Origin: the human T2T-CHM13v2.0 reference genome, Homo sapiens
Assembly (NCBI RefSeq): GCF_009914755.1
Contig: NC_060926.1
Strand: one strand, 5' to 3'
DNA length: 64,000 nt
Both the position numbers and the translations under genes were made by a program. The notes below the pieces were generated by a model. That model searched no databases. It was given only the letters and a program-made list of their open reading frames with translations, and was not told where the DNA came from. Shown here in pieces: positions 53,101-60,435 of this stretch; position 1 is the first letter of the stretch, and every line of letters starts with the position of its first letter.

Positions 53101-56100
53101 CTGGCTCACCTTTGCATTGCTGTCTCACAGGATCCCACTCATATCCGTCAGTGCATTGCTGTGAAGAAAACATCAAAGGTGGGGCCAGGAGACAGTTAAT
53201 TGGTGTGTCCATTCCCTAAGAAATCACTCTAAAAGCTTCATTCTTATGGCAACAATCCTTGTGCTAAAGTCCTAGATATATGATGAGATGGGTGGTTTAA
53301 CATTCTATCGCTTTTTTTTCAAAAGACAAGTCTGTGCATTGGACAGCTTCGGGGGTCCATTCTCAACCATCAGCTGCCTAAACTCTTCTGTTCTTTTTGG
53401 TACAGTTGCCCAGTACCATCTTCTTTTCTGTTTTGAGACTAATCTTCTCCAACTTCTCTGACTGCTCTTTATTAATTTGCCTTTTTTCCCACATTGGAAA
53501 TGTTAAAAAAAAAAAAAGACCAAATTCTCTCTCTTTCCTCGCCCTCTCCCCCGCCCCCACCCCCAACCAGCCCTGGACTCTTCTCTCTCTCTCTAAATCC
53601 TCTTACAGCATTCAAGCACCTCCATCTCACACCCTGACCTGCTCCCTAGCTTCAGCTCCTAAGGAACAGAGGTGTTCCTCCTAGCAGTTCCCAGCTTCAA
53701 TCTCCTCTCTAGTTCACCCACTGAACAAACAGCCTATGGATCACCTTCTGAAACCAGGCAGTTTTAGGGCCTGGGGATGCAAAGATGATGCAGACTTTGT
53801 CCCTGTCCTCAAGCAGCTCAAAGACCAGAAGAGGAGACAGATAGGTAGACAAGTTGCAGCAAGATGGCAGGTGCCTTCTACAAGTGTATGCAGGAAGGAG
53901 TAATGGACTCTGCCCGGGGGCATGGGTGAGCATGGCAGGGCAGAAGGGAAGACTTGACAGAGGAGGTGACAGTAAATCAGGCTTTACAGGATGAGCAGGA
54001 TTTTTCCAGGTGAATGTGGGAATTCTAGGAAGAGAGGCTATTGTGACAAAGGCATAAAATTTTTGAAAAGGGAAGGAGCTGCAAGGAGTTCTGGGTAGGT
54101 GGAGGATGAGGTTACAGAGGTAGGCAGGGCCAAAACAAGAAAGCCTTTCTTTAGGAATGGAAGCCTGAATTCTACCCTGAAGGTCAGTGAATCTCAAGCT
54201 TTATTGTGTCTAAGGATCATTCAGGGTTCTTGTTAAAATGAAGATTCCTGGGCCCACCCAAAGGATTTGATTCTGTAGGTCTGGGTAGGGGGCCTGGAAT
54301 CTAAATTCTTAGCAAGTATCCCAGGCGATTCCCATACAGGTTGTCTAGGAACTACTTCTTGAGAAATGTTGCTACAGGCGATAAGAGGCCTCTGAAGAAT
54401 TTTTAAGCTCAGGAAACAATCTGATCAGACGCTCATTTGAGAAAGTCACTGTAAGGAAGAAGCCCAAGGAAGGATTGAGCAAAAGTGGAGTAAACAAACA
54501 AATAAACTTAAATTCTTTTAATATAACTGAGAGCTGCTTATGTACACAAAGGATGCTTGACAAGGAAATAGCTGAATGGAAGCCCAGAGATCCATTTAGA
54601 TATTTTACTGATGTCTGAAACTTACTGGAGCGAGAACTAAATTCACTTTGTCTCTCAGACTAATTTTTTTCTTGTTTCCCAAACAGTGTTAAAGGTACCA
54701 CTACCTTTTTCGAAACCCAGGATTCCAACTTTAACATCAGTGCTGAATGCTCCACTTATTTTCCTTCCATCTCTGCTGACTTTGTGTCCATTTCTACCAT
54801 GTCTACTAAGAAAGGCTTTTGCTGGCCCATGAGTAGGCAAGGCCCCGCATCTCTACATGCTGCATACAGACCCCATGATCTTTCTTGTGCTCTTGGTTAT
54901 GTTGCTCCTCTCTCTGAGACCTCACAGTGACCTGCAGATCTCTCATCATCACCATCTCTGGGTTCTTCCCACTACCCAGTTCCAGCTGATCTGACCTTAT
55001 CACCACCTGGATTGGTCTCAGGTGCTTTCAGCTCTAGCTTTTGATTATGCCACTCTCTGACTCAGGTGCCTCTTCAGCCTTTCTAGATCAATCCAACCAA
55101 GGTCATCACTTCCTTCAAGAACCAGCACAGAGTTCTGTCTCCTCTAATATGCTGGCACCAACATTAATCACCTCCTTGCTTTTCTATTTCCTTGGCAATT
55201 TGTATAATCTGTATAATAGTATCATTTGTCCTTGCTTAGGAACTTTGTAGTTTTCAACACTGTCTTCCCAGGCTAAATTCTCCAAGAGGAGACTGAATTT
55301 TCTTAGTAAACAAACAAATTCTTTTAATAGTGATGAGAATTGCTTATGCAGATAGTTGTTGAGTAAACAGCTGAATGGACACCATCTTTAATATGGAAGA
55401 GGACTATGAGGCTATTATGTGGATACGAGCCCATTCTTCTGAAAAGTATCTTTCAAGCCAGGCAAAAATGGCAGTTCACTTGAATAATTTGTATGGTAAA
55501 TAGAGAAGACTTGCAATTTGTTTTAGGTATTTACTTCTAGACATTTAATGTCAGTGTACTATTAAGTAAGCCTAGACTGAGTTTAGCTTCACCACTTGGC
55601 TATGTAGCCCTAAGCAAGTTAGACACTCTCTCTGATCTTCAGTTCTACCATTAGTAGAAGGAAGATGATGCCACTTACCTTACACATTGCCGCAAGGATC
55701 AAAGGAGATCGTGTCTCCACAGCGGGATACTCAGAAATAGTTATTATCTTGTCCTTTAACCATGAATTATTAGGCATACAAAATTTAAAGGAGAATAGGC
55801 CCAATCTTAGCACAAAAGGGTAACATATCTGGAAAATTTGTTACAATAATAATGAACCCTAGTTAGTGGTCTTAAAACTATCATGTTTAAGCCACAGGGA
55901 ACCTTCTCTGGTAAAAATGAGGAAGATTTAGGTGATTAGCAAAGGGAAGGGCATAGAAGATAAGCAACTGGAAAAGAAGTAAAATCTTTTATGAGATGAT
56001 TATAAAAGTGGGTAGTGAATTTAATTTTAGCTCCCTGAGAAGGCAGTAAGTTTAGTCTGAATAACAAAACATTTTCATTTTAAGATAAACAGCACATGCC

Positions 56101-60148: not shown

Positions 60149-60435
60149 TATTCCATTTTATGTGTCTGTGTGTATGTGTGGAATACTATTTAGCCTTAAA
60201 AAAGAAATTCTGTCATTTGTGACACCATGGATGGAAGTGGAAAACATTATGCACAGTGAAATAAGCCAAATGTAGAAACACAAATACCACATGTTCTCAA
60301 GTATCTGAAAGTAACTTAAAACAATTGAACTCATAGAAGCAAAGAGTAGAATGGTGGTTACCAGAGGCTAGGGTTGCAGGGAATGGAGAGATAACAGTCA
60401 AAGAGTGTAAGCCTCAATTAGATAGGATGAATAAG

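What the first reader, a model, noticed from the sequence alone, without database searches (positions are those of the whole stretch)
55417..60202. 372-bp intronic segment copied 4,350 bp away into an L1, with fold-back junctions
Seen: 55427-55798 and 59777-60148 are direct repeats with 11 mismatches (97%), all transitions and no indels. The match extends a further 10 nt leftward with 2 mismatches (atgtggatac / atgtgtatat). Copy B splits an L1MA at its TA/TG microsatellite and carries a MIR fragment. MIRs are generally older than L1MA, so copy B is inferred to be the derived one. The junctions are complex. 59717-59740 (tttttaaggctaaatagtattcca) is the exact reverse complement of the L1 resumption at 60179-60202. 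A second inverted piece (aatagtattccatt, 60144-60157) overlaps the donor end by the microhomology aatag, and the left junction uses atgtg shared with the TG tract. There is no poly-A tail or TSD, so retrotransposition is unlikely. Inference: this is a multi-step template-switch repair scar (FoSTeS/MMBIR or Pol theta-type templated insertion). About 3% divergence suggests a hominoid-era event.
Basis: partly seen in the sequence, partly recalled or inferred. Interest (0 to 1): 0.8.

Follow-up and report, generated by a model that had tools for sequence, protein, structure and literature searches.

The report
Intron piece copied into old L1
A unique stretch of about 380 bases from an EFEMP1 intron was copied 4.35 kb away into an old LINE-1 just upstream of the gene, and the junctions look like a DNA-copying (template-switch) accident of a known kind rather than a jumping gene.

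Summary
55427-55798 and 59777-60148 align without gaps with 11 mismatches, all transitions. BLAST extends the match to 55417-55798 / 59767-60148, 96.6% over 382 nt. These are the only two copies found in the 3.1-Gb assembly.

Copy B sits inside a decayed LINE-1 ORF2. Window 59514-59624 matches ORF2p residues 1190-1226. In most of the 18 L1 relatives examined, the two flanks are contiguous. B is therefore the derived copy.

- The inverted L1 piece is about 60 nt (59717-59776), of which 24 nt are an exact inverted duplicate.
- B does have a flanking target duplication: T (59729-59771) and T' (60144-60178). Both start with the same 14 nt and end in atgtg.

No poly(A), polyadenylation signal or non-coding RNA was found.

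Best reading: microhomology-mediated replicative template switching (MMBIR/FoSTeS type). The nascent strand left at atgtg, copied the donor, and returned at aatag upstream of its departure point. That re-replicated a short host segment, the form called a "cycle of templated insertion" in cancer genomes.

Dating (K2P 3.05%) and orthologue tests could not be run. This is a clean new example of a known kind, of low to moderate interest.

The parts
55417..55798 (+). Copy A, the donor. A unique segment in the EFEMP1 intron between exons 57252-57339 and 53110-53158. The core is 55427-55798. The first 10 nt (55417-55426) are either part of the copy or the homeologous landing site.
   Evidence: 382 nt, 96.6%. 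(only 2 genomic copies). Intron position from the hub annotation.
59325..59625 (+). 5' part of a decayed, 5'-truncated LINE-1 (C-terminal region of ORF2). It ends at the codons for ORF2p residue about 1226. The start at about 59325 was judged by eye.
   Evidence: 59514-59624 matches LINE-1 ORF2p residues 1190-1226 of 1275, E 6e-15; the upstream flank aligns to L1 relatives.
59626..59716 (.). TA/TG/CA low-complexity tract at the L1 position where relatives carry about 4-8 nt. Its origin cannot be resolved.
   Evidence: TRF: AT-type arrays 59642-59713. (relatives are contiguous here; one relative, L020, has a long CA array at the same spot).
59717..59776 (-). Inverted L1 segment. 59717-59740 is an exact inverted duplicate of 60179-60202. 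59741-59776 (tt, a TG/CG tract, then atgtgtatat) reads in reverse complement as the L1 stretch that precedes 60179 in relatives, with an expanded CA tract.
   Evidence: I2 (24 nt, 100%). (reverse complement printed). (relatives). (0 of 18 relatives have such an inverted copy). It carries this copy's own T where most relatives listed have C.
59729..59771 (+). T, the target segment upstream of B. It starts with aatag (the return microhomology) and ends with atgtg (the departure microhomology).
   Evidence: D5. junction display.
59777..60148 (+). Copy B, the derived 372-nt copy of A (382 nt if 59767-59776 is counted). It lies 1,103-1,474 bp upstream of the annotated EFEMP1 transcription start at 58674.
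60144..60178 (+). T', the re-replicated copy of the target. The first 14 nt are identical to 59729-59742, followed by a TG-rich tract ending in atgtg. It overlaps the end of B by aatag.
   Evidence: D5 (29 nt, 90%).. (forms a 12-bp hairpin with 60179-60190, z = -2.95).
60179..60432 (+). Resumption of the LINE-1 (end of ORF2 and start of the 3' UTR), in the same orientation as the 5' part.
   Evidence: 4618 candidate matches in the genome; the 40 scored comprise the window's own L1 plus 39 copies at 75-81% identity..

Best explanation
This is a fixed germline scar of DNA-templated, microhomology-mediated replicative template switching (MMBIR/FoSTeS type). It arose at a structure-prone TA/TG/CG microsatellite inside an old LINE-1.

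In window order the structure is: L1 5' part, microsatellite, inverted L1 piece (about 60 nt), B, T', L1 3' part.

Inferred path of one nascent strand:
1. It leaves the L1 at about 59716 and copies the opposite strand backwards from 60202. This makes the inverted piece, including T.
2. At atgtg (59767-59771 = 55417-55421; 8 of 10 homeology to 55426) it jumps 4.35 kb back to the intronic donor. There it copies about 377-382 nt in direct orientation.
3. At aatag (55794-55798) it returns to the start of T (59729-59733, or its template at 60186-60190). This is upstream of the point it left, so T is copied a second time as T'.
4. It resumes the L1 at 60179.

The same four switches could have happened in one event, which I slightly favour at about 55:45. 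Alternatively there were two events: a short inverted template switch first, and the insertion later.

The structure and microhomologies are shown. The order, direction, enzymes and date are inferred. No function is indicated.
For: - **Donor and copy.** 382 nt at 96.6% identity with no indels. Only two copies in the 3.1-Gb assembly.
- **B is an insertion into an L1.** Window 59514-59624 matches ORF2p residues 1190-1226. An intact-frame relative reads through the junction, residues 1120-1231. In most of the 18 relatives examined, the two flanks lie within a few nt of each other. The window has 553 nt there.
- **Target duplication.** T and T' share their first 14 nt exactly and both end in atgtg (D5). 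This is what a return switch upstream of the departure point produces.
- **Microhomology.** 5 nt at each junction. My rough estimate is that about 0.3-0.4% of random junctions would show 5 nt or more.
- **Local origin of the inverted piece.** It is exact over 24 nt and carries this L1 copy's own variant. 0 of 18 relatives have such an inverted copy.
- **Structure-prone site.** An AT-type array lies at 59642-59713 and (TG)8 at 59742-59757. By eye the (TG)8 is followed by alternating CG. The 24-bp stem is in the MFE and centroid DNA fold. A 12-bp hairpin has z = -2.95.
[quoted passage not shown] Germline MMBIR-type templated insertions use microhomology or 'microhomeology' and up to five templates (PMC8421209, passages). 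The four-point model of reverse-oriented short template switches yields perfect inverted repeats (PMC7954356, Introduction).
Against: - No orthologous pre-insertion allele could be examined, so the ancestral state, the order of steps and the date are all inferred.
- T and T' differ in length (43 vs 35 nt) and at several positions in the TG tract. Microsatellite change after the event must be assumed.
- The left junction is ambiguous. 59767-59776 could be L1-derived (inverted) or donor-derived.
- There is no microhomology at the first switch (59716/59717).
- The germline MMBIR-type insertions in PMC8421209 were short and were searched for within 100 bp of the insertion. A 372-nt copy from 4.35 kb away is larger than those.
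- The donor lies in a transcribed intron, so an RNA template is not excluded.
- Sequence cannot separate a stalled fork from a one-ended break, or identify the polymerase.
Confidence: 0.75

Rival explanations
1. RNA-templated break repair (class 2 templated sequence insertion). A piece of EFEMP1 intronic pre-mRNA, or an antisense transcript, was reverse-transcribed and used as a patch at a double-strand break in the L1 microsatellite.
For: The donor lies inside the EFEMP1 transcription unit (hub annotation). According to PMC5110952 (text parts 1-2), class 2 insertions lack poly(A) and show microhomology, experimental ones were 73-414 bp, and intronic donors occur. B has no poly(A) and is 372 nt.
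Against: Class 2 insertions are defined as having no target duplication, whereas B is flanked by T and T'. Reported donors were scattered over 18 of 24 chromosomes with no regional preference, so a donor 4.35 kb away in cis is unexpected unless nascent RNA was used. The mismatches give no strand-specific editing signature: A to B they are 5 G>A, 3 C>T, 2 T>C and 1 A>G. The model does not explain the inverted L1 pieces.
Confidence: 0.08
2. Non-replicative capture of a free DNA fragment by end joining, or Pol theta-type synthesis-dependent end joining at a two-ended break, rather than fork- or BIR-type template switching.
For: Microhomology at both junctions. Short fold-back inverted duplications of about 5-34 bp at breaks are documented in yeast (PMC11724301, abstract in the search listing only), which resembles the 24-nt inverted duplicate.
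Against: The donor is intact, so nothing was cut out and pasted. A two-ended break does not readily give a 35-43-nt duplication of the target on both sides of the insert. From recall, not from a call: Pol theta-templated insertions are usually tens of nucleotides copied from the immediate flanks.
Confidence: 0.12
3. LINE-1-mediated retroposition of a non-L1 RNA (class 1 templated sequence insertion or processed-pseudogene-like event).
For: There is a flanking target duplication of 5 nt or more, which is one of the class 1 criteria (PMC5110952).
Against: Region 59700-60260 has no A or T run of 8 or more and no AATAAA or ATTAAA. The longest A or T run within about 35-40 nt of either junction is 4. 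The duplication is 35-43 nt and partly microsatellite, longer than usual L1 target-site duplications (their usual length is recalled). Inverted local pieces are not expected.
Confidence: 0.01
4. Not a real event: an unrecognised interspersed repeat family, a DNA transposon with 24-bp terminal inverted repeats, or an assembly artefact.
For: A 24-bp perfect inverted repeat brackets a 438-nt interior (I2), which superficially resembles a MITE.
Against: There are only 2 copies in the assembly. The right 'terminal repeat' is simply the continuing L1. 0 of 18 L1 relatives have the inverted piece. The two copies differ at 11-13 positions, which does not fit an assembly duplication.
Confidence: 0.01

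Closest known systems
Cycle of templated insertion (PCAWG structural-variant class; Li et al. 2020, PMC7025897)
   Same: A segment is copied, not moved, from elsewhere and inserted at a host site. The return to the host re-replicates a host segment (T/T'). A replication-based mechanism is proposed (passages read).
   Different: That class is described in somatic cancer genomes and often involves 2-7 templates, frequently from other chromosomes. Here a single small template lies 4.35 kb away in cis, the re-replicated host segment is only about 35-43 nt, and the event is fixed in the germline of this assembly.
MMBIR/FoSTeS templated insertions (germline MMB-TIs of Osia et al. 2021, PMC8421209)
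   Same: Template switching at microhomology or microhomeology. Inverted copies of nearby sequence. [quoted passage not shown]
   Different: MMB-TIs were searched for as short inverted copies whose template lies within 100 bp. That fits the 24-60-nt inverted L1 piece here. It does not fit the 372-nt direct copy from 4.35 kb away.
Short-range template switch mutations (four-point model; Walker et al. 2021, PMC7954356)
   Same: A reverse-oriented copy of a local template creates a perfect inverted repeat. Associated with AT-rich, structure-prone DNA (Introduction and section headings).
   Different: That model covers a single local switch pair over tens to hundreds of nucleotides. It does not include an additional long-range direct templated insertion.
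Templated sequence insertion polymorphisms, classes 1 and 2 (Onozawa and Aplan 2016, PMC5110952)
   Same: Insertion of a copy of unique genomic sequence with the donor left intact. The size lies in the reported experimental range of 73-414 bp. Intronic donors are reported.
   Different: Class 1 requires poly(A), a polyadenylation signal and a TTTT/A site, which are not found here. Class 2 is defined as having no target duplication and its donors are distant or on other chromosomes. Here there is a target duplication and a cis donor 4.35 kb away.

Membership tests
Replicative templated insertion (MMBIR/FoSTeS; 'cycle of templated insertion') | The inserted sequence is a copy; the donor is retained | tested here: met
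   Both copies are present: 382 nt at 96.6%. They are the only two in the assembly.
Replicative templated insertion (MMBIR/FoSTeS; 'cycle of templated insertion') | Microhomology or microhomeology at the switch junctions | tested here: met
   atgtg at the left junction (8 of 10 if extended) and aatag at the right. There is none at the 59716/59717 junction.
Replicative templated insertion (MMBIR/FoSTeS; 'cycle of templated insertion') | The return to the host re-replicates a host segment (cycle) rather than leaving a gap (bridge) | tested here: met
   T 59729-59771 and T' 60144-60178 flank B (D5). Definition taken from PMC7025897 passages.
Replicative templated insertion (MMBIR/FoSTeS; 'cycle of templated insertion') | A pre-event allele lacking the insertion (proof that all parts arose together) | not testable with these tools
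   No other primate or human genome is available. Only the L1 relatives show what an uninterrupted element looks like.
Short-range template switch (four-point model) | A reverse-complement copy of a nearby template that creates a perfect inverted repeat | tested here: met
   59717-59740 is the exact reverse complement of 60179-60202 (I2). It carries the copy-specific variant.
Class 1 TSI / L1 ORF2-mediated retroposition | Poly(A) of 10-40 nt with a polyadenylation signal 10-20 nt upstream | tested here: not met
   Region 59700-60260 has no A or T run of 8 or more and no AATAAA or ATTAAA.
Class 1 TSI / L1 ORF2-mediated retroposition | Target-site duplication of 5 bp or more | tested here: met
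   T/T' (D5). At 35-43 nt it is atypically long and partly microsatellite.
Class 2 TSI (RNA-derived patch at a double-strand break) | No target duplication; NHEJ-type junctions | tested here: not met
   A target duplication is present. Microhomology is present.
Class 2 TSI (RNA-derived patch at a double-strand break) | The donor is transcribed | tested here: inconclusive
   The donor lies in an EFEMP1 intron according to the hub annotation. No expression data were examined.
LINE-1 (host element of copy B) | Encodes ORF2p-like sequence and is a high-copy dispersed repeat | tested here: met
   ORF2p residues 1190-1226, E 6e-15. 4618 candidate genomic matches. The subfamily (L1MA) was not tested.
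MIR (claimed content of the copied segment) | Similarity to the MIR consensus | not testable with these tools
   No repeat library is available. A sensitive self-BLAST of 55200-56000 against the window found no other similar element. The resemblance to MIR rests on recall only.

The most novel reading that the evidence does not exclude
The copy was templated by EFEMP1's own nascent intronic RNA, used in cis to repair a break about 1.1 kb upstream of the gene's promoter. That would be a natural, fixed example of transcript-templated repair in the primate germline. A second possibility is that, whatever the mechanism, the event moved an intronic regulatory piece next to the EFEMP1 promoter and changed its regulation in apes.
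Probability: 0.07. Interest if true: 0.6.

Novelty: new member of a known kind. Interest (0 to 1): 0.28.

Why it matters
This is a compact scar, readable base by base. One locus shows an inverted local copy, a long-range direct copy and a re-replicated host segment, each with its microhomology. Fixed germline examples of this quality help link the 'templated insertion cycles' catalogued in cancer genomes to the mutational processes that shape normal primate genomes. They also provide a concrete substrate for experiments: a 24-bp hairpin with a TG/CG loop. It does not change what is known about these mechanisms, and no effect on EFEMP1 is indicated.

Tried and rejected
- **Pfam on the L1 flanks.** Two stop-free pieces of 37 and 25 aa gave 0 families. 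Four longer ORFs from 4 of the 18 L1 relatives gave nothing relevant; the only hit was ARID below its cut-off. L1 identity was then obtained from the solved ORF2p structures.
- **Rfam over 55200-60500.** Four matches at E up to 1, all far below the gathering scores and all in the TA/CA microsatellite. Neither copy contains a non-coding RNA.
- **MIR content.** A word-7 BLAST of 55200-56000 against the window found only copy B and one weak 81-nt match. The whole-genome search found no further copies. The MIR claim is therefore neither confirmed nor refuted.
- **DNA transposon or MITE reading of the 24-bp inverted repeat.** Rejected.
- **Editing or APOBEC signature in the mismatches.** None; the directions are mixed.
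- **All-transition pattern and mismatch clustering.** 11 of 11 transitions has P of about 0.009-0.02. A cluster of 6 mismatches in 51 nt has P of about 0.04. Both are only mildly unusual, and I draw no conclusion from them.
- **Literature on this locus.** A search for EFEMP1 + promoter + LINE-1 + duplication returned 2 unrelated papers.
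Full report
**Observation**

The two stretches are present as described. 55427-55798 and 59777-60148 align without gaps, with 11 mismatches in 372 nt, all of them transitions. 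The repeat finder reports the pair at a start-to-start spacing of 4350 (D1).

The 10 nt to the left match at 8 of 10 positions. One of the two differences is C (copy A, in a CpG) against T (copy B). A gapped BLAST joins everything into one 382-nt alignment at 96.6%: 55417-55798 vs 59767-60148, E 7e-147.

The 24-nt exact inverted repeat 59717-59740 / 60179-60202 is confirmed (I2). So is the 14-mer at 60144-60157 (D5).

**Is it a repeat family or an artefact?**

A search of the window's own assembly (3.1 Gb, 24 contigs) with copy B found two candidates and scored both: the two copies themselves. The tool warns that it skips very common words. A 372-nt mostly unique query would still have been seeded, so a dispersed family at detectable identity is excluded.

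Eleven to thirteen differences between the copies do not fit an assembly duplication. Rfam finds nothing in either copy. There were four sub-threshold matches, all in the TA/CA microsatellite.

**What copy B sits in**

The translated stretch 59514-59624 matches LINE-1 ORF2p residues 1190-1226 of 1275 (E 6e-15). The sequence from 60179 onward has 4618 candidate matches in the genome. The 40 scored comprise the window's own L1 plus 39 copies at 75-81% identity.

I fetched 19 related loci and examined 18 of them at the junction. L010 was left out because its match started at query base 21. In most of the 18, the upstream flank (ending at window position about 59625-59627) and the downstream flank (starting at 60179) lie within a few nucleotides of each other.

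The exceptions are:
- L009, L017 and L021, which have other sequence immediately upstream.
- L020, which has a long CA array at exactly this spot.

One relative keeps an open frame through the junction that matches ORF2p residues 1120-1231.

So the window carries 553 nt (59626-60178) where an L1 normally has about 4-8 nt. Copy B arrived after the L1, and copy A is the donor. The resemblance to MIR, and the L1MA name, rest on recall only.

**Anatomy of the insert**

From left to right:

1. **59626-59716.** TA/TG/CA low-complexity sequence (TRF).
2. **59717-59776, an inverted L1 piece.**
   - Its first 24 nt are the exact reverse complement of 60179-60202.
   - The remainder, read in reverse complement, runs on as the L1 bases that precede that point in relatives, with an expanded CA tract.
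   - The inverted piece carries this copy's own T at a position where most relatives listed have C.
   - 0 of 18 relatives have an inverted copy of their own 24-mer within 700 nt upstream.
   - It was therefore copied locally, long after the L1 inserted.
3. **59777-60148.** Copy B.
4. **60144-60178, here called T'.** Its first 14 nt equal 59729-59742, and a TG-rich tract ending in atgtg follows.
5. **60179 onward.** The L1 resumes.

The segment T (59729-59771) upstream of B starts with the same 14 nt and also ends in atgtg. B is thus flanked by a direct repeat of the target.

**Junctions**

- **Right.** The donor ends at aatag (55794-55798) and T begins with aatag (59729-59733). These 5 nt are shared.
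- **Left.** T and T' end in atgtg, and the donor alignment begins with atgtg (55417-55421). With mismatches allowed, the similarity runs to 8 of 10.
- **Ambiguity at the left.** 59772-59776 could be donor-derived, with two later substitutions of which one is a CpG transition. Or it could be inverted L1. The exact left breakpoint lies somewhere in 59767-59776.
- **At 59716/59717.** No microhomology.

**Retroposition hallmarks**

Region 59700-60260 has no A or T run of 8 or more and no AATAAA or ATTAAA. The longest A or T run within about 35-40 nt of either junction is 4.

**Mechanism**

The structure is what a nascent strand produces through these steps:

1. It switches to the opposite strand and copies it backwards. 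This makes the inverted piece.
2. It jumps 4.35 kb back to the intronic donor at a short homology and copies about 380 nt.
3. It returns at aatag to a point upstream of where it left, so that T is copied a second time.
4. It resumes the L1.

Returning strings of templated insertions that re-replicate a host segment are called 'cycles' in the PCAWG classification and are ascribed to replication-based template switching (PMC7025897, passages).

Germline MMBIR-type templated insertions with microhomology or 'microhomeology', and with up to five templates per event, have been described as accumulating through evolution (PMC8421209, passages).

The four-point model of short reverse-oriented switches explains perfect inverted repeats such as the 24-mer (PMC7954356, Introduction).

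The site is structure-prone:
- TRF reports an AT-type array at 59642-59713 and (TG)8 at 59742-59757.
- By eye, the (TG)8 is followed by alternating CG.
- The 24-bp stem appears in the MFE and centroid DNA fold of 59700-60215 (z = -2.72).
- T' pairs with the resuming L1 in a 12-bp hairpin (z = -2.95).

That such structures stall forks or provoke breaks is established knowledge. That they did so here is inference.

**One event or two**

The same four switches can be placed in a single event or in two: a short inverted switch first, and the insertion with re-replication later. The exact 24/24 and 14/14 matches fit the same age as B. At 3% divergence, about one mismatch would be expected in those 38 nt. 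They cannot separate the two models. I lean slightly to a single event.

**Rivals**

- **RNA-templated patch (class 2 templated sequence insertion).** Suggested by the intronic, presumably transcribed donor, the size and the lack of poly(A). Against it: that class is defined as having no target duplication, its donors were scattered over the genome (PMC5110952, text parts 1-2), and it does not explain the inverted pieces. The mismatch spectrum shows no one-strand editing pattern.
- **L1-mediated retroposition.** Fails on poly(A) and the polyadenylation signal.
- **Fragment capture or Pol theta-type joining at a two-ended break.** Explains the microhomology, but not easily the 35-43-nt duplication on both sides.
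- **Transposon, repeat-family and artefact readings.** Rejected.

**Age**

K2P distance is 0.0305. The Poisson 95% interval for 11 differences is 1.5-5.3%. By recalled primate divergence figures, this brackets the orangutan split and lies between the gorilla and macaque splits. 'Hominoid-era' is therefore plausible but untested.

If the copying was error-prone, as replicative repair is thought to be, some differences date from the event itself and it is younger than this suggests.

The all-transition pattern (P about 0.009-0.02) and a cluster of six differences in 51 nt (P about 0.04) are mildly unusual and unexplained.

**Context and function**

Copy A lies in the intron between exons 57252-57339 and 53110-53158 of EFEMP1. 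Copy B lies 1,103-1,474 bp upstream of the annotated start at 58674 (hub annotation). It does not overlap the RefSeq enhancer feature at 58234-58733. Nothing here indicates a function.

A search for papers on this locus found only two unrelated ones.

**Verdict**

This is a clean new instance of a known kind of mutation. The decisive test, orthologous loci in other primates, could not be run here.

Noticed in passing
window 55308-55379 vs 54500-54580: A weak direct similarity (70% over 81 nt, E 3e-6) just upstream of the donor, in the same intron. It includes an exact 15-mer at 54489 and 55305. It may be an older local duplication or a shared ancient repeat (D3, D6, D15).
   Followed up: no
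window 55513-55563: Six of the 11 differences between the copies fall within 51 nt (P about 0.04 by random placement), and all 11 are transitions (P about 0.01-0.02). The directions are mixed, so this is not a one-strand editing signature.
   Followed up: partly
L020 (G000:C13:25124563-25127813), around locus position 1455-1500: An unrelated L1 copy has a long CA microsatellite at exactly the ORF2 position where the window's L1 is disrupted. This L1 position seems prone to microsatellite birth.
   Followed up: no
window 60433-60705: An Alu-like element with an A tail is inserted in the 3' UTR of the same L1. This was judged by eye and recall. It contains the internal 49-nt repeat D2 and coincides with NCBI's masked stretch 60433-60738.
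   Followed up: no
window 59618-59719: Sub-threshold Rfam matches to mir-297, mir-1277 and mir-4012 (23-33 bits against gathering scores of 80-90) fall in the palindromic TA/CA microsatellite. Most likely low-complexity chance matches.
   Followed up: no
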